A DNA stretch of 44,324 bases from a phage. The stretch is taken from assembly GCA_026204955.1 (NCBI GenBank), contig GCA_026204955.1_4545.1; one strand, written 5' to 3'. Shown one piece after another: positions 4,874-13,140 of this stretch. The notes under the pieces were generated by a model that made no database searches, was not told the DNA's origin, and saw only the letters and a list, made by a program, of their open reading frames with translations. Numbering within the stretch: position 1 is the first letter of the stretch; each line of letters starts with the position of its first letter. A program made the translations under genes and the position numbers.

Positions 4874-5481
4874 CCACCTTTAAACTATACGGCGTCTTAG
4901 GACGTCGTTTCGGTAAAGTGCATAAGCTGGACTGCTTCACGCCGGGCGAGGGTATCACCGGCCTGTGTGTGAAGTTACCAGGCTTACAGGACTTTCTAAT
5001 GTCGGCCCACCTGGACAACATGATGTTCAAAGTGCGCAAGGGCAATCACACTCTGACCGGCTACGATGAGCTGGGCGAGTTCCACGGCAATCGCGTAGTG
5101 ACCATCGCGCCGGTTATGACTGGTGCAAAAAGCGGACTGGGCCAATTGCTGGCTGGTGTAGCAATCGTGGTGGCGTCGTTCTATACCGGCGGGCTTGCGA
5201 CTGCCGCTTTCGGAGCTTCAGCGGCTACAGCGGCCTCTATCGGCGCAGCGACGTTTTCGTTCGGGATGTCGATGGCGCTGGGTGGCGTTATGCAATTGTT
5301 ATCACCGCAACCGAAAGGATTGCAGACACGGCAGGACGTGGATAACAAGGCGTCGTACGCGTTCGGCGGACCAGTGAACACAACCGCGCAAGGCACGGCA
5401 CTTGGTGTATTATGGGGCGAGCGTGAGATCGGCGGCGCTATTATTTCCGCCGGAATCGTAACCGAGGACTTGAACGAATGA
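4864..5481 (+). CDS. tail assembly protein I-like
   Basis: 205 aa, N-terminal ubiquitin-like region then Gly/Ala-rich hydrophobic C-terminus; overlaps K-like and J-like genes as in lambda. Confidence 0.5.
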   Translation: MAMTTFKLYGVLGRRFGKVHKLDCFTPGEGITGLCVKLPGLQDFLMSAHLDNMMFKVRKGNHTLTGYDELGEFHGNRVVTIAPVMTGAKSGLGQLLAGVAIVVASFYTGGLATAAFGASAATAASIGAATFSFGMSMALGGVMQLLSPQPKGLQTRQDVDNKASYAFGGPVNTTAQGTALGVLWGEREIGGAIISAGIVTEDLNE

Positions 5482-8400
5482 CGATTATCTACGACGTCAC
5501 TGGGCATAAAGGCGGCGGCGGCAAACAGCACACCCCGCAGGAAACGCCGGACAGCCTGCATTCCCTGGCTAAAATCCGCATCTTGCTTGCACTGGGTGAG
5601 GGGGAATTCGAAAGTATTACCAGCGCAAGCGAATTGCGGCAGCGTGTATACCTGGACGGCACGCCGATCCAGAACGCAGACCTGTCAGAAAACTTCCCCG
5701 GCGCGCGCGTGGAGTTCCGCCCGGGCACACAGCACCAGGATGTGATCCACGGATTTTCAGCGGTAGAAAGCGAGCAATCCGTCGGTGTAAAACTGGAAAA
5801 CGGCACGCCGTGGGTGCGCCAGATTAATGACACCAGTCTTGACGCCGTGCGAATTCGCATCGGCATTCCAGCTTTGTACACTAACGAGGACAATGGCGAC
5901 CTGGTTGGCGGGCGCATCGACTACAAAATCGTTGTGTATACGGATAACGCCGACCCGCGTGAGTTCAGATTCGCCGCCGTTGGTAAAACAATGTCGCTAT
6001 ATGAGCGCGACCACCGCATCGAATTACCGCCGAACGTGAATACCGGCTGGCGAGTGGAGGTGCACCGCATAACGGCAGACTCCACATCGGCGAAAGTGGT
6101 GAACGATATTCAGGTGCAATCAATCACTGAGATTATCGACGCCCGCCTGCGCTACCCGCTAACCGCGCTGTTGTTCGTGGAGTTCGACGCTAAAGCGTTC
6201 CAGAACATCCCGCGCGTATCCATTAAGTGCAAAGGCCGCAAAGTGCTGGTGCCAAACAACTATGACCCGATTAATCATACCTATTCGGGCGACTGGGATG
6301 GCACGTTTAAACGCGCCTGGACGGACAACCCTGCGTGGCACTGGTACGATATTTGTATTACAGAGCGCTTCGGCCTCGGTCGGCGTATCAAACCGCAAAT
6401 GTTAAACCGGTACGCGCTCTACCAGATTGCGCAGCGCTGCGATCAGTTGGTCAGCGACGGCAACGGCGGGCAAGAAATCCGCTTTAAGAATGATATGTAC
6501 ATTCAGTCACAGACGGATGCCTGGACCGTGCTTAAGGATTTAGCCGCTATCTTTGCCGGTATGACCTGGTGGGGCAACCAGATGTTGAATATCGTAAGTG
6601 ACCAGCCGGTCGCAGCGGTATCGCACACTATCACCAACGCCTCGGTTATTGATGGCAGATTCGACTACGCGTCAGGGAGCCAGAAAACTCGCTATTCCAC
6701 GTTCGCGGTAGCATACGGCAACCCGAAGAACCACTATGAAGACGCCATCGCAACGGGCCAGCGTGTCGAACTGGTGCGCCGCCATAAAATCAACCGCCTT
6801 GATATAACGGCGATCGGCTGTACGCGTGAGTCAGAAGCGCAACGACGTGGGCACTGGGCGCTAATCTCCAACCAGCTTGACCAGCAAGTTAGCTTTAAGG
6901 TTGGCATGGAGGGACTTTTCTTTATTCCGGGTAGCGTAGTCGCGATCGCCGATACAAACATTTCTGGCGGCTTCGAGACACGCGGCGGTCGCCTGTTGTC
7001 GGACCCTGGCACGCGTACCGTGCTTAACACGGACAGCGAAATCACGTTCCGCCCAGGTGATAAATTCCTGGTACGCACCAATAGCGGTAATGTGGAGACT
7101 CGCGAGATCGCCAGCGTCAACGGCAACAAGGTTACGCTAAAAACCGCACTGGACGCCGACCCGATTCCTGATCAGCCGTTTTGCGTCGATGGCAACGATA
7201 TCCAGTTGCAGAAGTTCCGCATCACCGACCTGGAATATGACGACTCTACCAGCACTTTTTCAGTGCGCGGGATCGAGTACAACGATAGCAAATATGATGC
7301 CGTTGATAATGGCGCTCGCCTTGATCCGGGCATCTTTACTCAAGTGCCCGACGGTGTAATGAAGGGGCCAGAGTCCGTAACCATCACCCCGTCGCAGATT
7401 TCATCGCAAGGCCAGCTAATCACCAACGTGGATATTGTATTCCCTCCGGTGAAGGACGCCGTGGTGTATGAAATCCAGTGGCGACGTACCAGCTTGCAGA
7501 ATATGGAAATCCAGTGGGGTAACGACTGGGTTAACATCCCCCGCACGGCATCGAACGGCGCGCACATCCCTAACGTGTTCTCCGGTAACTACCAGGCACG
7601 CGTCCGCGCAATCGGTATGGGCGAGATTTCATCCCCGTGGGTGTCGTCTGCCATCACGCCGATAGAAGGTCGTCTCGGCGGGCTTAACGCGCCTATCATC
7701 ACCAACGCGATTTCGGGCCTCCACCAAATTTTGTGGAAGTGGAACCACAACAACGCCGCGACGGATATTTCGTACACCGAGCTTGAAGTGCGCAAGACCG
7801 GTGAAACGGAATGGAAATTTCTTACCAACGTCCCATACCCAGGGTCAGATTATGCGCAAACGTCGCTGGAGTTCGGGATCTATCAGCAGTTGCGCGCCCG
7901 CGTAGCAGATAAAATCGGCAACCTGTCAGACTGGTCAGCCCCGTTTGAAGGCCAGGTGAGTGACAAAGTCGACGAATACATGAAGGGGCTGGATGACGAG
8001 TTCTTGACTTCCGAAGATGGCAAACACTTCCAGGAAGCGATCGACACCATGCCGCAAGGCATTTACGAGGCTATGCTGACCGACGCACAGCAGCTATTCA
8101 ACGCCCGCGCCGAGTACAAAGGGATTTACGCAGAAATAACGGTCGCGTATAACGTGGCGGCGGACGCGCATAAAGCCGTAGCGCAACTGGAAACGTTGAT
8201 CGGCACGCGCCTTGATGACGCTGAGGCATCAATCCACACGTTGCAGACTGCGCAAAGCACACATGAACAAGCGTTCGCCCAGTACCAGCAAACTGTTGCC
8301 GCTAAGTTTTCGGAACAGGAAGCCGCCATCCAGCAGGTACAAACGGCAACGGCGGACGTAGCTGGCGCGCTGGCGGAGTATAAGACCCAGGTCGCGGCAC

Positions 8401-8924
8401 AGTTCGGGCAGCAGTCCGCCGCTATCGAGCAGAAGATGACGTCTTCGTTTAACCATGCCGGTGGGAGCGCCACGTACAGCCTTAAGGCGGGCGTGACGTA
8501 TAACGGGACTTACTATGATGCCGGTATGCAGCTTTCCGTCGTGACGTCGGGCAACGCAGTTAAATCTCGTATTGCGTTCAAGGCCGACCAGTTCTACATT
8601 ATGCACCCGTCGAATGGGTCGCTTTCGTCCGCGTTTATCGTTGACGGCGGGCAGGTGTATATTGACACGGCGCGCGTCAAGGACGCGTCCATCAATTTCG
8701 CGCAGATCACGGACACGCTGCAATCGAATAACTTCGTTTCAGGGTCACGCGGCTGGCGTATCCAGAAAGGCGGAGCGGCGGAGTTTAACGAGGTGACGGT
8801 GCGCGGCAACTTGTTCGCGACTACTGGTAACTTCGGGTTTTCAGGCGGGACGGTGACGATCGACGCCACAGGCGTTAATGTGCCATTACCCGGCGGGGGG
8901 AGGGTGAAAGTCGGCACGTGGTAA
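5478..8924 (+). CDS. host specificity / central tail fibre protein J-like
   Basis: 1148 aa (lambda J is about 1130 aa), last gene of the M-L-K-I-J block; followed by a strong hairpin terminator. Confidence 0.75.
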   Translation: MTIIYDVTGHKGGGGKQHTPQETPDSLHSLAKIRILLALGEGEFESITSASELRQRVYLDGTPIQNADLSENFPGARVEFRPGTQHQDVIHGFSAVESEQSVGVKLENGTPWVRQINDTSLDAVRIRIGIPALYTNEDNGDLVGGRIDYKIVVYTDNADPREFRFAAVGKTMSLYERDHRIELPPNVNTGWRVEVHRITADSTSAKVVNDIQVQSITEIIDARLRYPLTALLFVEFDAKAFQNIPRVSIKCKGRKVLVPNNYDPINHTYSGDWDGTFKRAWTDNPAWHWYDICITERFGLGRRIKPQMLNRYALYQIAQRCDQLVSDGNGGQEIRFKNDMYIQSQTDAWTVLKDLAAIFAGMTWWGNQMLNIVSDQPVAAVSHTITNASVIDGRFDYASGSQKTRYSTFAVAYGNPKNHYEDAIATGQRVELVRRHKINRLDITAIGCTRESEAQRRGHWALISNQLDQQVSFKVGMEGLFFIPGSVVAIADTNISGGFETRGGRLLSDPGTRTVLNTDSEITFRPGDKFLVRTNSGNVETREIASVNGNKVTLKTALDADPIPDQPFCVDGNDIQLQKFRITDLEYDDSTSTFSVRGIEYNDSKYDAVDNGARLDPGIFTQVPDGVMKGPESVTITPSQISSQGQLITNVDIVFPPVKDAVVYEIQWRRTSLQNMEIQWGNDWVNIPRTASNGAHIPNVFSGNYQARVRAIGMGEISSPWVSSAITPIEGRLGGLNAPIITNAISGLHQILWKWNHNNAATDISYTELEVRKTGETEWKFLTNVPYPGSDYAQTSLEFGIYQQLRARVADKIGNLSDWSAPFEGQVSDKVDEYMKGLDDEFLTSEDGKHFQEAIDTMPQGIYEAMLTDAQQLFNARAEYKGIYAEITVAYNVAADAHKAVAQLETLIGTRLDDAEASIHTLQTAQSTHEQAFAQYQQTVAAKFSEQEAAIQQVQTATADVAGALAEYKTQVAAQFGQQSAAIEQKMTSSFNHAGGSATYSLKAGVTYNGTYYDAGMQLSVVTSGNAVKSRIAFKADQFYIMHPSNGSLSSAFIVDGGQVYIDTARVKDASINFAQITDTLQSNNFVSGSRGWRIQKGGAAEFNEVTVRGNLFATTGNFGFSGGTVTIDATGVNVPLPGGGRVKVGTW

Positions 8925-8928
8925 AAGC

Positions 8929-8954
8929 GAGGGGGCCGTTTGGCCCCCTTTTTT
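8929..8954. terminator. bidirectional rho-independent terminator (after J; after convergent 8953 gene)
   Basis: GAGGGGGCC-gttt-GGCCCCC followed by T6 on + strand, A-tract on the other side. Confidence 0.7.
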
Positions 8955-9918
8955 AATAGATGTTTGGGATAACAAGTAAGGGGGTTGGCACCGCGATATT
9001 TTTACCCGGCATCTGGAATTGCTGCCGTGAGTAGTTGCCGATGACGCGGTTTTTAGCGACGCGCACATTATTACCCGCCATGCGTATCCCGTTCATTCTA
9101 ACGTGGTTATAGCCTCCGTTGTTCTCAATGAGCGCGCCGGTGTATGAAAGCTGGATCAGACTATTACCAATATGCTGGTCGCCGCCTCCGATGTTAATAG
9201 TGCGGTCGTAGACAAACGGCTTGTTCACCGTCGAGAACGTGACCTGATTCTGGCTATTCGTCATGGTGATCCCGGCCCCAGGCGTTGGTGGTGTATTGTT
9301 GAATATTACCAAATCCATGTCCACAGAAGCCGCCACATCGTCGATGCCACCGTAGGACGCGTTGCGGACAATAATACTGCCGCCGTCGAAGCCTACTGAT
9401 ACGTTGCCATCGTCCCATCGGGCGAACGGGACACCGCTAACGGGCAATGCCATACTGCCGTTGACGCGCACGCGCTGTGCGTATCGGCAGGTCATTAGCT
9501 TAGACACGTTGGATATGGCGGTGAAGTCCGTCGAGTTCTCCACCAGTAAGCCCGCGTTGCGTGAACCAACCGGCAGCACTTCCATTATGACGCCAGCCCA
9601 TTGTGGTAAGCCAGAGTACGCGCCATACGCATCCTCCCCGCGCAGGGTGATACCACTATTCCCGTTGCGGGTAACAGACGTAACGTAAAACGGGTCGGGA
9701 ATTACCAGGGTCTGGTCGAATACCTCAATCACTTCTACCGGGCGAGTGAGCGCGACGACGACCTGCGACCCCTCCGTAAGCGGGGTGTTAATGGTTAGCG
9801 TCTTGTTGGACTGTGCCAGCTGGTTAAAGCTGGTGCAGTATGACGGCGCGCGGAGTCCAGCGGTTATCTCCATTACAGGCCTGCCGTCGTTATAGTCGAT
9901 AAGTATTCCAGCGCCCAT
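8953..9918 (-). CDS. hypothetical protein with beta-helix-like Asn/Gly-rich repeats
   Basis: Track ORF 8953-9927 (GTG); preferred ATG 9918 with GGGAG RBS, directly after the lipoprotein stop. Repeats such as NIGGGDQHIGNS and GGYNHVRMNGIRMAGNNVRVAKNRVIGN resemble parallel beta-helix turns. No signal peptide. Confidence 0.4.
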   Translation of the reverse strand: MGAGILIDYNDGRPVMEITAGLRAPSYCTSFNQLAQSNKTLTINTPLTEGSQVVVALTRPVEVIEVFDQTLVIPDPFYVTSVTRNGNSGITLRGEDAYGAYSGLPQWAGVIMEVLPVGSRNAGLLVENSTDFTAISNVSKLMTCRYAQRVRVNGSMALPVSGVPFARWDDGNVSVGFDGGSIIVRNASYGGIDDVAASVDMDLVIFNNTPPTPGAGITMTNSQNQVTFSTVNKPFVYDRTINIGGGDQHIGNSLIQLSYTGALIENNGGYNHVRMNGIRMAGNNVRVAKNRVIGNYSRQQFQMPGKNIAVPTPLLVIPNIY

Positions 9919-9920
9919 TA

Positions 9921-10142
9921 TTACCACTCCCGTGATTTAACTGATACTGTGCCTGAGAAGTTGCCGTCGCTATCGGATGTCAGCCCGGTGAATCGCATGT
10001 CCACATCTCCTGCCGGGACTTTTTGCCCGTCAACGTAGCGCAACATGCAGCTACCGTAAGCAACCGTAACGCAATCGCCGTTGTTGCGTTCTACGGCGCA
10101 ACCGGACAAAAGAACAGCACAAATCATAATTAAAGTTTTCAT
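9921..10142 (-). CDS. small lipoprotein (possible Cor-like superinfection exclusion protein)
   Basis: Internal start MKTLIMICAVLLSGC gives signal peptide plus lipobox (LSGC); AGGAG RBS 8 nt upstream of ATG 10142; 73 aa; transcribed opposite to the flanking tail genes. Confidence 0.5.
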   Translation of the reverse strand: MKTLIMICAVLLSGCAVERNNGDCVTVAYGSCMLRYVDGQKVPAGDVDMRFTGLTSDSDGNFSGTVSVKSREW

Positions 10143-10173
10143 GGTATCATCTCCTATATTTGGTCGAGTTTTA

Positions 10174-10201
10174 GTATTACACCGCTCGATCAAGAATGCA
10201 A
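10174..10201 (-). promoter_or_regulatory. sigma70-like promoter for antisense lipoprotein cassette
   Basis: Reverse strand -35 TTGCAT (10201-10196), 16-nt spacer, -10 TAATAC (10179-10174); extended -35 context AAATTGGTTGCAT shared with other sites. Confidence 0.4.
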
Positions 10202-10222
10202 CCAATTTACGAGGATTTAGCT

Positions 10223-12538
10223 ATGGCAGCGGGTACTCTATCCGTAACGAACAACAGCAAGGCGGTAGTAGGGGTCGGCACGACGTTTACCGCGTTTAAA
10301 GCTGGCGACTTCTTAACGCTGGTGGTAGGACAAGTCCCATACACCGTGGCAATCGCGTCCATTGAAAGCGCAACCGCGCTTACGCTGGTGCTGCCGTTCG
10401 ACGGCCCAACGGCAACCGGCCTCGCGTGGGATGGTGTTAAGCGCGATACCATGTCACTGGCGACGATGGGCGTAACCGTACAGGCGCAGAAAGCGTTGCG
10501 ATTGATGATCTCCGATGAAAACAACTGGCGTGCAATCTTCGGAGACGAAGAAGAAATCTCGATCACGCTGCCGAATGGTCAGGTAATGCAGGGTATGTCG
10601 TGGGGCTACCTGTCGTCTTTGCTGAAGGAAGTAGACCCTGTTGAGATGCGCAACCTGCAACAACAAGCCGCCGCATCTGAAGCCGCCGCGCAAGGATTCC
10701 GCAACGAGGCGGAAGGCTTCAAGAACACCGCGAATACCGCGAAAGACGACGCTGTAACTGCGAAGACCGCGGCTGAAACGGCGCAGGGTAAAGCCGAGAC
10801 AGCTAAAACGGCAGCAGAGTCCGCGAAGACCGCCGCGGAGACAGCTAAATCGCAGGCCGTAACCGCTAAAGACCAGGCTAAAGTATTCCGCGACGAGGCT
10901 GAGGGCTTTGCAAATAGCGCGGACGCAAAAGATAAAGTACCGTATGCTGGTGCGATGTTGGCAACTGCAACTGGAATTGCAGACATGCTCAAGCAGTTGC
11001 GCGATAATGTTAAGGGTGGATTCTGGCGCATCAATGATACATCTCAGTTCCCTGAGGGCGAGATGAAACCTTTTGTACACGGATCAGGTATTTGTGGCGG
11101 TGCTGGGGATACATTCTTTGCTATTAATACTGCTTACCCATATGGGCGAATTAAAGTTTACACGGGTAACAATAGCGCTATCGATGGTACGAGTGGAAGG
11201 GTGGGTGCCCTTGAGTTGGCTGGGCTAGATTCACCCACCTTTACGGGTACAGTGAATGCGCCTAAGATTCGTGTTGGCAATGTTACACTACGGCCCGTAA
11301 CTTCCGGAGAAGGAAGCGGAGACGGGGTTGTTTGGGAATCCCGCAACGCCACGGAGGCAAGTTTTGGCATTGCGAATGTCGGCGGTGGGTCCGCGGTTTT
11401 CCACAACTACTCAAAACCGGCAAACGGATCCGGCGTGGCTACAGGAGTGCTTATTGGGGGGTACGGGTCGCGCCCGTGGACCGGAACGGAATACACAGAC
11501 CATAGTAACGTGTCCCAGCACTTCCTGATGGACGGAACCGCTTCGGCTACTAACCACGGCGGCTGGTTTAGGTTGCTAACAACCCCATTGAATAAGACCA
11601 GCGCCGATCGTAGGCAAACATTCGCGACCAGCAACAACGGCGATTTATATGTTGGGTACGATGTGCCTATGGGGCTTTATAAGCTAACGCAGGAAAGCTA
11701 CAACGGATTGGAATTATTAAACGGTCGCGGTCTTAAACAAGTAAATAACTCGAATAATGAAGTAGCCTTAATCACTCCACGCAATGGGCTAACGGCTAAT
11801 ATAAATTTCAGGGGTGTTGCTTTTGACGGCACAATGACCGGAGCTAAAGGCGCCACTCAGCCGGGCGACAACATGTGGTTATCTTTTGCAGGGCATGACG
11901 GTGTAAGATTCACGGGTGCCGCTGCCGGTATGCGGATTCAGGCGTCGACTGGATGGTCAACCACAAACACGCAATGCGGAATAACGTTTGCGACAACGAA
12001 AGCAGGGTCTACGCAGAGGGTGGACCGGTGGAGTATTACTAGCGACGGGTCCCTGTCCCCCGCGGCTGACAACACATACCCGATCGGCAGCGCCGTTTCC
12101 CGTGTTACCGCAGTCTTCGCAGCAAACGGCGCCATACAGACCTCGGATGCCAGACTCAAGACCGAGGTTAGAGGTTTAACAGAGGCTGAGATGGGTGCCG
12201 CTAAAGAAATCGCCCGCGAGGTTGGTATTTTCCAGTGGCTTGCGCGAGTAGCTGAAGAGGGGGATGAGGCGAGGCTCCATGCCGGTATTACCGTGCAGAA
12301 AGTGATGGAAATCATGAGGTCTTATGGTCTGGACCCCTTGAAGTATGGATTCGTGTGCTACGACGAATGGGAGGAGACTTCAGAGGTTATCAGCGACCCC
12401 GATGATAATTCGAAGTCGACGATAAAGATAACTCCCGCTGGCAATAGGTATAGCTTGCGATATTCGGAACTAAACGTGTTTATCGCCCGAGGACTTGAGC
12501 AAAGAATCTCAGAACTGGAGGCTAAGTTAGCTGGTTGA
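10223..12538 (+). CDS. tail fibre protein with C-terminal intramolecular chaperone (S74-like) domain
   Basis: 771 aa from ATG 10223 (GAGGA RBS); Ala/Lys/Thr-rich heptad-like repeats (AAETAKTAAESAKTAAETAKSQ); C-terminal segment TSDARLKTEV...GLDPLKYGFV resembles the autoproteolytic chaperone domain of phage tail fibres and endosialidases. Confidence 0.7.
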   Translation: MAAGTLSVTNNSKAVVGVGTTFTAFKAGDFLTLVVGQVPYTVAIASIESATALTLVLPFDGPTATGLAWDGVKRDTMSLATMGVTVQAQKALRLMISDENNWRAIFGDEEEISITLPNGQVMQGMSWGYLSSLLKEVDPVEMRNLQQQAAASEAAAQGFRNEAEGFKNTANTAKDDAVTAKTAAETAQGKAETAKTAAESAKTAAETAKSQAVTAKDQAKVFRDEAEGFANSADAKDKVPYAGAMLATATGIADMLKQLRDNVKGGFWRINDTSQFPEGEMKPFVHGSGICGGAGDTFFAINTAYPYGRIKVYTGNNSAIDGTSGRVGALELAGLDSPTFTGTVNAPKIRVGNVTLRPVTSGEGSGDGVVWESRNATEASFGIANVGGGSAVFHNYSKPANGSGVATGVLIGGYGSRPWTGTEYTDHSNVSQHFLMDGTASATNHGGWFRLLTTPLNKTSADRRQTFATSNNGDLYVGYDVPMGLYKLTQESYNGLELLNGRGLKQVNNSNNEVALITPRNGLTANINFRGVAFDGTMTGAKGATQPGDNMWLSFAGHDGVRFTGAAAGMRIQASTGWSTTNTQCGITFATTKAGSTQRVDRWSITSDGSLSPAADNTYPIGSAVSRVTAVFAANGAIQTSDARLKTEVRGLTEAEMGAAKEIAREVGIFQWLARVAEEGDEARLHAGITVQKVMEIMRSYGLDPLKYGFVCYDEWEETSEVISDPDDNSKSTIKITPAGNRYSLRYSELNVFIARGLEQRISELEAKLAG

Positions 12539-12542
12539 AAAA

Positions 12543-12570
12543 GAAAGGGCCATACGGCCCTTTCTTAATT
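12543..12570. terminator. bidirectional terminator between convergent tail fibre and 12565 gene
   Basis: GAAAGGGCC-atac-GGCCCTTTC perfect 9-bp stem, T-rich on both flanks. Confidence 0.65.
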
Positions 12571-13140
12571 TGAGTTTTCCCAGTCCATCTTGCGCCGCAC
12601 CAGCGGGCTTTCGTAGTAATCCTTGCCTTCAACTTCCACTAAAGGCCAATCATTAACAATGACGTATGGCTCCGCGATATCTTCAATAACGCCGTGCGCG
12701 CTATGTTGTCCGAACGATACGCCCACCAGGATAACACCGGCAACGCGACGGGTCAGATATTCGCGAGCGCAACGTGCCTCAACCAGTCCGCGACGGATGC
12801 CGCTGGTGGCCTTAACCTCGTAGGTCCAGACGGCATCGATCACATGCTCGCGGAAGTCTGGACCGGACTTCACCTTGCGCTTGCCGACCATGATGATATC
12901 GCCGCGGTCAATGGTGTTGGCGCTAAACAGGCCGGTACGCATAAGTAAGCCTTGCGGTACGCAACTACGCCCGCCCGCCTGCCCCTCAAGGTACATGCCC
13001 GCAAACATTTCGCCCAGCACACCGACCAGTCGGCTTTGCTTGCACGCGTCAGACTTTAAGCGCCACTGATCAAACTCGATGCTTGCTATCATTGCAGCCA
13101 GGTGGAATTGTTTACCAGATATTTCATATTCGCCGTACAT
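12565..13140 (-). CDS. hypothetical protein, PD-(D/E)XK nuclease-like motif
   Basis: 191 aa; GPDF...(14 aa)...YEVK arrangement matches the PD-x(n)-(D/E)xK signature. Motif-only inference. Confidence 0.35.
   Translation of the reverse strand: MYGEYEISGKQFHLAAMIASIEFDQWRLKSDACKQSRLVGVLGEMFAGMYLEGQAGGRSCVPQGLLMRTGLFSANTIDRGDIIMVGKRKVKSGPDFREHVIDAVWTYEVKATSGIRRGLVEARCAREYLTRRVAGVILVGVSFGQHSAHGVIEDIAEPYVIVNDWPLVEVEGKDYYESPLVRRKMDWENSN

What the first reader, a model, noticed from the sequence alone, without database searches (positions are those of the whole stretch)
8953..10142. Antisense two-gene cassette (lipoprotein + beta-helix-like protein) between J and the tail fibre gene
Both genes run opposite to the flanking tail genes, with their own promoter (TTGCAT-16-TAATAC) and terminator, and are translationally coupled (stop 9921, next ATG 9918). 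The first is a small lipoprotein with lipobox LSGC, in the genomic position where Cor-type superinfection exclusion lipoproteins occur in other siphophages. The second is a 321-aa Asn/Gly-rich protein with beta-helix-like repeats and no signal peptide. This looks like a moron-type accessory unit, possibly receptor blocking or surface modification, and the pairing is not one I recognise.
Basis: partly seen in the sequence, partly recalled or inferred. Interest (0 to 1): 0.62.

Follow-up and report, generated by a model that had tools for sequence, protein, structure and literature searches.

The report
Known LptD receptor-binding and exclusion gene pair
The two antisense genes are the already characterised host-recognition pair of small E. 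coli siphophages: a tail-tip protein that binds the outer-membrane LPS exporter LptD, and a small lipoprotein that blocks LptD in infected cells, so the finding is real but ordinary.

Summary
A 73-aa lipoprotein gene (10142-9921, minus strand; lipobox LSGC) sits 2 nt upstream of a 321-aa gene (9918-8953, minus strand), between J and the lateral tail fibre gene of a Dhillonvirus-type genome.

The lipoprotein (Pfam PF24052) is 97.3% identical to bas18_0026 and homologous to Rtp45. Rtp45 is the superinfection-exclusion lipoprotein solved on the periplasmic face of LptDE (9RPS). It is not a Cor-family protein.

In 76 of 80 related loci the RBP gene lies co-directionally inside the tail operon.

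By-products:
- The swappable module runs 8737-10093, from inside J to just after the lipobox.
- Kuravirus podophages carry homologues of the J-tip domain, the RBP and the lipoprotein.

Novelty: already known.

The parts
5478..8924 (+). J-like central tail fibre (tail tip) protein, 1148 aa. Inferred platform that carries the RBP.
   Evidence: Pfam FNIII-A_GpJ, Phage-tail_3 and Phage_Tail_Tip (residues 982-1118); PHROG 31 central tail fibre J.
8737..8924 (+). Allele-specific C-terminal tip of J (last ~62 codons). It is exchanged together with the RBP and lipoprotein genes and is the inferred docking site for the RBP.
   Evidence: Against sister phage JLBYU60, nucleotide homology stops at 8736. 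J identity is 94-100% up to residue 1050, 80% for 1051-1100 and 22% for 1101-1148, whereas it stays at 90% or more to the end against Oekolampad. The motif ...GGRV(K/V)VG.W is shared by J proteins next to DUF6453 genes.
8929..8950 (.). GC-rich hairpin between the convergent J and RBP genes; candidate bidirectional terminator.
   Evidence: Called as a terminator on the plus strand. Folding energy is -19.7 kcal/mol (plus) and -18.4 kcal/mol (minus), z = -3.1 and -3.6. A bidirectional terminator is annotated at the same place in SU57.
8953..9918 (-). Receptor-binding protein, 321 aa, DUF6453; LptD-specific allele (orthologue of Oekolampad bas18_0025, homologue of Rtp44).
9921..10142 (-). Superinfection-exclusion lipoprotein precursor, 73 aa, PF24052 (orthologue of bas18_0026, homologue of Rtp45). 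Signal peptide and lipobox are codons 1-15 (10142-10098); the mature part starts at Cys15.
   Evidence: Pfam Phage_lipoprotein 76 bits against a cut-off of 27. PDB 9rps_D (Rtp45) E = 2e-8 with the Cys pair aligned. 71/73 identical to bas18_0026.
8737..10093 (.). The exchangeable host-recognition module as delimited against a sister genome: J tip, hairpin, RBP gene and the mature part of the lipoprotein gene.
   Evidence: blastn breakpoints at 8736 and 10094 against JLBYU60. The first 16 residues of the two otherwise unrelated lipoproteins are identical (MKTLIMICAVLLSGCA).
10143..10222 (.). 80-nt divergent intergenic region. On the minus strand it holds the candidate promoter for the cassette (10201-10173) and the AGGAG ribosome-binding site (10155-10151).
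   Evidence: Read from the sequence. Conserved in 8 Dhillonvirus loci. Not called by the consensus scan. Function unverified.
10223..12538 (+). Lateral tail fibre protein (771 aa from the likely start) with a C-terminal Peptidase_S74 chaperone domain. This is the flanking gene, not part of the cassette.
   Evidence: Pfam PF13884 and PHROG tail fibre families. The start is placed by analogy with bas18_0027 and with temperate homologues that begin MSAGTLTLTNNS.

Best explanation
The cassette is the LptD allele of the host-recognition locus of small siphophages.

The RBP. The 321-aa protein is the terminal receptor-binding protein. It is made without a signal peptide and is assembled, probably as a single copy, onto the C-terminal tip of the J-like central fibre. 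It probably docks through its conserved N-terminal ~30 residues. [quoted passage not shown]

The lipoprotein. The 73-aa protein is exported, lipidated at Cys15 and, having Ala at position +2, sorted to the inner leaflet of the outer membrane. There it binds the periplasmic side of LptDE and pushes a hairpin up the lumen. This displaces loop EL4, so that RBPs of this family can no longer bind. The effect is to exclude superinfecting LptD-dependent phages and to keep progeny from being wasted on cell debris.

The operon. The two genes are co-transcribed and translationally coupled. Together with the last ~62 codons of J they are exchanged as one module between phages.

Shown by others on 95-97% identical or homologous proteins: RBP-LptDE binding, the lipoprotein-LptDE complex, and LptD dependence of infection.

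Inferred here: that this phage behaves the same way, that the RBP attaches to the J tip, membrane sorting of the lipoprotein, and the operon's expression.
For: Sequence and structure:
- The RBP is 95.6% identical and the lipoprotein 97.3% identical to Oekolampad bas18_0025 and bas18_0026.
- The RBP matches PDB 9RPT/9RPW/9RQI chain C over its full length, E = 2e-203.
- Gln299, which the paper reports as hydrogen-bonded to LptD Ser350, is conserved.
- The lipoprotein passes Pfam PF24052. It aligns to Rtp45 (9rps_D) with both disulfide cysteines in register (C24/C32 against C30/C38).

Literature:
- Oekolampad resistance maps to lptD, and the locus downstream of gpJ predicts receptor specificity (PMC8594841).
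- Cryo-EM structures of RBP-LptDE and Rtp45-LptDE, with the exclusion mechanism (PMC12685063).
- An independent confirmation of the locus-receptor link across 255 phages (bioRxiv 10.64898/2026.04.02.716166).

Context:
- In 76 of 80 IMG/VR loci, and in Salmonella phage SPN3UB, the DUF6453 gene lies co-directionally between J and the fibre gene, as a tail gene should.
- The J tip co-varies with the RBP allele.
- The same lipoprotein-then-RBP arrangement, convergent on J, is found in Rtp, SU57, BF9, EF3-1 and PEC9.
Against: - Nothing was tested on this phage itself.
- Fourteen substitutions separate its RBP from Oekolampad's (positions 15, 34, 49, 95, 127, 139, 148, 215, 222, 245, 246, 249, 265, 320). 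I could not map them onto the interface.
- In the papers read, the Oekolampad lipoprotein could not be expressed, so the structure is of the 35%-identical Rtp45.
- No in vivo exclusion assay appears in the text searched.
- RBP-LptDE complex formation in vitro was slow and partial (15-35% after 48 h) and involved a degraded LptD jellyroll domain.
- Attachment of the RBP to J and its copy number have not been visualised.
- The promoter is weak by consensus.
Confidence: 0.93

Rival explanations
1. The two genes are a moron-type accessory unit. The 321-aa protein would be a non-structural, dispensable factor (receptor blocking or surface modification, beta-helix enzyme fold) that works together with the lipoprotein in the infected cell.
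For: - Antisense orientation with a possible own promoter and hairpin.
- PHROG 1265 is filed under 'moron, auxiliary metabolic gene and host takeover / membrane protein'.
- Many GenBank records call it 'membrane protein'.
Against: - Near-identity to a protein solved as the RBP on the extracellular face of LptDE.
- No signal peptide, so it cannot reach the cell surface from inside.
- Co-directional placement in the tail operon in 76 of 80 related loci.
- The J tip co-varies with it.
- The database labels are unreviewed annotation.
Confidence: 0.02
2. The cassette is an RBP plus exclusion pair as described, but the RBP of this particular phage recognises a receptor other than, or in addition to, LptD. 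The cause would be its 14 substitutions or a second specificity in J.
For: - Receptor switching by few substitutions is known for phage RBPs (general knowledge).
- Bas01 needs NupG as well as LptD, through a J domain.
- Variable positions in the close clade include 49, 212, 215, 245 and 249.
Against: - 95.6% identity, with the reported contact residue Gln299 conserved.
- RBPs only 31-33% identical (TheodorHerzl; the Rtp type) still go with LptD.
- The cognate lipoprotein is 97% identical to Oekolampad's.
- The J tip is 90-94% identical to Oekolampad's.
Confidence: 0.04
3. The lipoprotein is not primarily an exclusion factor. It would be an assembly or specificity accessory of the RBP (a chaperone, or a virion-associated protein).
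For: - Tight translational coupling with the RBP gene.
- SU57's annotation labels it 'structural'.
- No in vivo exclusion data were seen.
Against: - It has a signal peptide and lipobox, so it leaves the cytoplasm where tails are assembled.
- Its homologue Rtp45 was solved bound to the periplasmic face of LptDE with a ~1,000 A2 interface, displacing the loop the RBP needs.
- Oekolampad RBP was produced and bound LptDE without it.
- 76 of 80 temperate-type loci have the RBP without an adjacent lipoprotein.
Confidence: 0.03

Closest known systems
Oekolampad (Bas18) bas18_0025 / bas18_0026: RBP_Oeko and SE_Oeko (Dunbar et al., PNAS 2025, PDB 9RPT/9RPW/9RQI; Maffei et al. 2021)
   Same: Same genus-level genome type. 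Same gene order, orientation and spacing. Proteins 95.6% and 97.3% identical. J tip 90-94% identical. Same hairpin and intergenic region.
   Different: Fourteen substitutions in the RBP and two in the lipoprotein. The lateral fibre gene differs (780-aa ORF here, 771 aa from the likely start at 10223, against 606 aa). Nothing functional is known to differ.
Phage Rtp Rtp44 / Rtp45 (Drexlerviridae); Rtp45-LptDE structure 9RPS
   Same: Same two Pfam families. Same lipoprotein-then-RBP operon convergent on J. Same inferred receptor and exclusion mechanism.
   Different: The paper gives 33% (Rtp44 vs RBP_Oeko) and 35% (Rtp45 vs SE_Oeko) identity; the window lipoprotein is 36% identical to Rtp45. The genes overlap by 1 nt (ATGA) instead of being 2 nt apart. 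A different phage family, with recombination genes rather than a fibre gene on the far side.
T5 pb5 (RBP) and Llp (lipoprotein) acting on FhuA
   Same: Works alike. A monomeric RBP at the tip of the central fibre, plus a small periplasmic lipoprotein that makes the same receptor unusable from the inside (PMC12685063; PMC9586334 listed).
   Different: No sequence or fold relationship was detected. The receptor is a TonB-dependent transporter. Llp acts by long-range allostery, whereas Rtp45 physically displaces a loop.
Cor-family lipoproteins (T1, phi80, N15) and the alternative allele of the same slot, e.g. JLBYU60 gp25-gp27
   Same: Same genomic slot and same antisense orientation of the lipoprotein gene. 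Identical signal peptide and lipobox (MKTLIMICAVLLSGCA).
   Different: The mature lipoprotein is unrelated: PHROG 1119 matches the JLBYU60 protein over its full length but the window protein only over residues 1-30. The RBP genes are two forward-strand genes of other families (PHROG 557 and 425).

Membership tests
LptD-type receptor-binding protein of small siphophages (Pfam DUF6453; RBP_Oeko / Rtp44) | Full-length sequence match to the family profile and to a characterised member | tested here: met
   PF20051 405 bits against a cut-off of 25. 9rpt_C E = 2e-203 over residues 1-321. 95.6% identity.
LptD-type receptor-binding protein of small siphophages (Pfam DUF6453; RBP_Oeko / Rtp44) | Fold of the solved RBP (all-beta, lectin-like sandwiches) | tested here: met
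LptD-type receptor-binding protein of small siphophages (Pfam DUF6453; RBP_Oeko / Rtp44) | Gene directly next to the gpJ homologue, with a J C-terminus of the matching allele | tested here: met
   28 nt lie between the two stop codons. The J tip matches other DUF6453-linked J proteins and diverges from a Cor/PHROG-425 allele.
LptD-type receptor-binding protein of small siphophages (Pfam DUF6453; RBP_Oeko / Rtp44) | Binds LptDE; infection depends on LptD | not testable with these tools
   Shown for Oekolampad only. Needs plating on lptD mutants or a pull-down.
LptD-type receptor-binding protein of small siphophages (Pfam DUF6453; RBP_Oeko / Rtp44) | Component of the virion tail tip | not testable with these tools
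   Indirect support only: tail-operon position in 76 of 80 related loci.
Rtp45-type superinfection-exclusion lipoprotein (Pfam PF24052) | Profile match above the curated cut-off | tested here: met
   76.1 bits against 27, residues 3-73. 9rps_D E = 2e-8.
Rtp45-type superinfection-exclusion lipoprotein (Pfam PF24052) | Signal peptide with lipobox; residue +2 compatible with outer-membrane sorting | tested here: met
   MKTLIMICAVLLSGC|A. Ala at +2. The sorting rule (Asp at +2 retains a lipoprotein in the inner membrane) is established knowledge, not tested here.
Rtp45-type superinfection-exclusion lipoprotein (Pfam PF24052) | Conserved cysteine pair (Cys30-Cys38 disulfide of Rtp45) | tested here: met
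   C24 and C32 align with C30 and C38. The disulfide is described.
Rtp45-type superinfection-exclusion lipoprotein (Pfam PF24052) | Binds the periplasmic face of LptDE and prevents RBP binding or infection | not testable with these tools
   A structure exists for Rtp45 only. SE_Oeko could not be expressed. No in vivo assay was found.
Cor-family superinfection-exclusion lipoprotein (PHROG 1119) | Homology over the mature protein | tested here: not met
   Only residues 1-30 (the signal peptide) match, E = 5e-4. A true Cor protein in the same slot of JLBYU60 matches residues 1-72, E = 2e-27.
Moron (autonomous, dispensable accessory unit) | Own promoter and terminator | tested here: inconclusive
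   The hairpin is present but shared with J. The promoter candidate is weak and was not called.
Moron (autonomous, dispensable accessory unit) | Product is not part of the virion or the core infection cycle | tested here: not met
   This holds for the 321-aa gene, which is the receptor-binding protein by near-identity and a tail-operon gene in relatives. The lipoprotein alone could fairly be called accessory.
Right-handed beta-helix tailspike / pectate lyase fold | Global structural match to a beta-helix | tested here: not met

The most novel reading that the evidence does not exclude
The cassette is one allele of a portable three-part kit: a PF09327 'tail tip' domain, a DUF6453 RBP and a PF24052 lipoprotein. 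The kit is not confined to siphophages.

Kuravirus podophages such as IMEP8 and EK5 encode three matching parts. One is a tail-needle-position protein ending in a PF09327 domain. A DUF6453 protein is encoded immediately downstream. An Rtp45-like lipoprotein is encoded in the early region.

This would make LptD an unrecognised terminal receptor, engaged at the Kuravirus needle tip, with a matching exclusion factor. Within the window itself, the only new point is that the module's recombination boundaries lie inside J (codon ~1087) and just after the lipobox of the lipoprotein gene.
Probability: 0.35. Interest if true: 0.55.

Novelty: already known. Interest (0 to 1): 0.12.

Why it matters
For this genome, the result assigns the terminal receptor (LptD, an essential and conserved outer-membrane protein) and the exclusion factor from sequence alone. 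It also corrects the widespread 'membrane protein / moron' label on DUF6453 genes.

It adds nothing conceptually new. The locus, the receptor, both structures and the exclusion mechanism were published between 2021 and 2025.

Two small by-products may be useful:
- A base-level delimitation of the exchangeable module (8737-10093), which is what one would swap to retarget such a phage.
- The lead that Kuravirus podophages carry the same kit.

Tried and rejected
- Single-sequence AlphaFold2 of the 321-aa protein gave an unusable model (pLDDT 31.6). It was repeated with a 35-sequence alignment.
- tRNA and Rfam scans of the whole window found nothing.
- I looked for the lipoprotein next to the RBP in 76 temperate-type loci by tblastn and by a lipobox ORF search. 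Only spurious out-of-frame ORFs turned up. It may lie more than 3 kb away or be absent.
- Pfam found nothing for the three genes of the alternative allele in JLBYU60. PHROGs did.
- Beta-helix, pectate-lyase or tailspike fold: rejected.
- Cor-family membership: rejected.
- I could not map the 14 substitutions onto the LptD interface, because neither coordinates nor the paper's supplementary contact list were available.
- A literature search for DUF6453 found one incidental mention. Searches for Rtp44/Rtp45 found only the two papers already used.
Full report
**What is in the sequence.** The window is a Dhillonvirus-type siphophage genome. Its replication and head half is 92-95% identical in nucleotides to phages Gluttony_ev152, JLBYU60 and welsh.

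The tail genes run on the plus strand: tape measure, minor tail proteins, and a 1148-aa J-like central fibre protein (5478-8924). J carries the Pfam domains FNIII-A_GpJ, Phage-tail_3 and Phage_Tail_Tip.

- A 73-aa ORF runs from ATG 10142 to the stop at 9923-9921. It begins MKTLIMICAVLLSGC|A and has AGGAG 8 nt upstream.
- A 321-aa ORF runs from ATG 9918 to the stop at 8955-8953. GGGAG lies 8 nt upstream, inside the end of the first gene.

Two nucleotides separate the stop from the next start.

A GC-rich hairpin (8929-8950) fills most of the 28 nt between the convergent stops of J and the 321-aa gene. It folds at -19.7 and -18.4 kcal/mol on the two strands. The scan called it a terminator only on the J strand, because on the cassette strand the U-run is interrupted.

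They match the consensus at only 6 of 12 positions and were not called by the scan. The 80-nt divergent intergenic region is conserved in eight Dhillonvirus loci, but so are the flanking genes, so this says little.

The lateral fibre gene most likely starts at 10223 (GAGGA-7-ATG; MAAGTLSV...). That is the start used in Oekolampad and in temperate homologues.

**What the two proteins are.** The 321-aa protein is a full-length member of Pfam DUF6453 (E = 2e-121).

A sequence search of the PDB returns one hit: chain C of 9RPT/9RPW/9RQI, E = 2e-203, aligned over residues 1-321. This is the receptor-binding protein of phage Oekolampad (Bas18) in complex with the LptDE lipopolysaccharide translocon (PMC12685063). 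Against the Oekolampad genome, the window protein is 307/321 identical to bas18_0025.

The 73-aa protein passes Pfam PF24052, 'Phage lipoprotein' (76 bits, cut-off 27). It is 71/73 identical to bas18_0026. It aligns to Rtp45 (PDB 9RPS chain D, E = 2e-8) with its Cys24 and Cys32 on the Cys30-Cys38 disulfide of Rtp45. It touches the Cor profile (PHROG 1119) only over residues 1-30, the signal peptide.

**What is known about the pair.** Maffei et al. (PMC8594841) showed two things.
- Spontaneous resistance to Oekolampad and six other phages sharing this allele maps to lptD.

Dunbar et al. (PMC12685063) solved RBP_Oeko inserted into the extracellular mouth of an open LptDE state. The interface is ~1,700 A2 and contacts are mainly with LptD loops EL3-5 and EL11. 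They also solved Rtp45 on the periplasmic side, where its hairpin passes up the lumen and displaces EL4 by up to 20 A, which is incompatible with RBP binding.

A 2026 preprint confirms the locus-receptor link across 255 phages.

Some gaps remain in what I read.
- SE_Oeko could not be expressed.
- No in vivo exclusion assay turned up.
- The tail-proximal part of the RBP is disordered.

**Mechanism I commit to (confidence 0.93).**
- The 321-aa protein is the terminal RBP, carried on the tip of J.
- It binds LptD and triggers ejection.
- The lipoprotein is exported, lipidated at Cys15 and sorted to the outer membrane. Ala at +2 allows this by the established Lol sorting rule.
- It then occupies LptDE from the periplasm, so that RBPs of this family cannot bind. 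That excludes superinfection and protects progeny from debris.

Binding and LptD dependence are shown for near-identical or homologous proteins. Their transfer to this phage, the docking on J and the expression pattern are inferences.

**Comparative evidence gathered here.** The family is widespread.
- tblastn finds the RBP in 435 phage records and the lipoprotein in 323.
- The RBP also occurs in Citrobacter, Salmonella and E. coli genomes, where it is named only 'DUF6453 family protein'.

The orientation differs by phage type.
- In 76 of 80 IMG/VR loci (RBP 50-56% identical) the order is J, then DUF6453, then fibre gene, all on one strand, and J ends 8 nt before the RBP start in L009 and SPN3UB.
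- The temperate Salmonella phage SPN3UB has the same order.
- These 76 loci have no lipoprotein gene within 3 kb.
- Only the four Dhillonvirus loci have the inverted lipoprotein-plus-RBP cassette.
- The inverted arrangement recurs in the loci examined from Dhillonvirus and from the Drexlerviridae Rtp and SU57 (Rtp, SU57, BF9, EF3-1, PEC9).

This places the large gene among the tail genes and argues against a moron. The sample has limits: it was retrieved by peptide patterns and capped at 80 loci.

In a 35-sequence alignment, the most conserved blocks are residues 1-30 and roughly 121-230. Residues 31-110 and 241-310 vary. The N-terminus and loop 119-133 are also the least confidently modelled parts. 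That fits a surface which orders only on J. This is my inference, in line with the remarks.

**Limits of the exchangeable module.** JLBYU60, a sister Dhillonvirus, has another allele in the same slot. It has two forward genes (PHROG 557 and 425) and an antisense lipoprotein that is a true Cor-family protein (PHROG 1119, E = 2e-27).

Nucleotide homology with the window ends at 8736 and resumes at 10094.
- J is 94-100% identical up to residue 1050, 80% for 1051-1100 and 22% for 1101-1148. Against Oekolampad it stays at 90% or more to the end.
- On the other side, the two unrelated lipoproteins share an identical first 16 residues, MKTLIMICAVLLSGCA.

So the module is 8737-10093: the J tip, the hairpin, the RBP gene and the mature part of the lipoprotein gene. 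This explains why the Cor profile hits only the signal peptide. J proteins next to DUF6453 genes end in a common motif...GGRV(K/V)VG.W.

**A side lead.** Kuravirus podophages gave weak hits to both window proteins. A single genome, IMEP8, contains three matching parts.
- gp017 (357 aa) has a complete PF09327 tail-tip domain. By gene order it sits in the position of the SU10 tail needle gp18.
- gp018 (344 aa) lies immediately downstream. It passes DUF6453 (91 bits against a cut-off of 25); its EK5 counterpart is 23% identical to the window RBP.
- gp099 (99 aa), in the early region, passes PF24052 at 118 bits. It has lipobox LTGC and an Rtp45-like motif.

The needle ends ...RIRIG(T/S)W. The SU10 structure paper never mentions gp19, the gene that would follow the needle gene gp18, and it resolved the needle only to 15 A. 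No paper in the library connects Kuravirus with LptD. This is a hypothesis, not a finding.

**Verdict.** Interest is low.

Noticed in passing
L091:5382-7491 and L084:2474-2773 (Kuravirus IMEP8, NC_070993.1); L003:2899-4903 (Kuravirus EK5): Gordonclarkvirinae podophages carry the whole kit. A tail-needle-position protein ends in a PF09327 tail-tip domain, as J does. A DUF6453 protein (88-91 bits) lies immediately downstream. An Rtp45-like PF24052 lipoprotein (118 bits, lipobox LTGC) is encoded in the early region. This suggests LptD as an unrecognised Kuravirus receptor with a matching exclusion factor. No paper in the library links the two, and the SU10 structure paper never mentions a gp19, the gene that by gene order would follow the needle gene.
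   Followed up: partly
window 8737-10093; L092:20872-22234 (JLBYU60): Against a sister Dhillonvirus with a Cor-type allele, the recombination boundaries of the host-recognition module fall inside coding sequence. One is at about codon 1087 of J. The other is right after the lipobox of the lipoprotein gene, so two unrelated exclusion lipoproteins share an identical 16-residue signal peptide.
   Followed up: yes
L008-L083 (IMG/VR), L087 (Salmonella phage SPN3UB): In temperate or prophage-type relatives the DUF6453 gene is co-directional with J and the fibre gene; J ends 8 nt before it in L009 and SPN3UB. No PF24052 lipoprotein gene was found within 3 kb. Where their exclusion function lies, if they have one, was not determined.
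   Followed up: partly
L002:3772-4099 (Citrobacter phage HCF1, MN545971.1): What looks like a decayed cassette sits next to a longer J (1238 aa). A small ORF matches only the N-terminal half of PF24052, and only the first 33 codons of the RBP gene remain (82% identical). The record is flagged UNVERIFIED_ASMBLY, so this could be an assembly artefact.
   Followed up: partly
window 8953-9918 and its database homologues: PHROG 1265 files this receptor-binding protein under 'moron, auxiliary metabolic gene and host takeover / membrane protein'. RefSeq records copy 'membrane protein', and one record says 'exonuclease'. The protein has no signal peptide or membrane segment, so the labels are misleading.
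   Followed up: no
window 10223-12538 and 12565-13140: Lateral fibre gene: the first ~170 codons are conserved with JLBYU60, then the gene diverges completely up to 12541, which marks a second swappable block. It ends in a Peptidase_S74 chaperone domain. Just beyond it lies a conserved antisense 191-aa ORF of unknown function (PHROG 10558; bas18_0028 in Oekolampad).
   Followed up: no
hits H13, H22, H39 and H88: Records named Sodalis phage SO-1 and Acinetobacter phage NJ01 hold this E. coli-type cassette at 85-91% nucleotide identity, and Campylobacter phages A120/A127 encode the two proteins at 60-62% amino-acid identity. The host labels of some of these records look doubtful for a module that targets enterobacterial LptD.
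   Followed up: no
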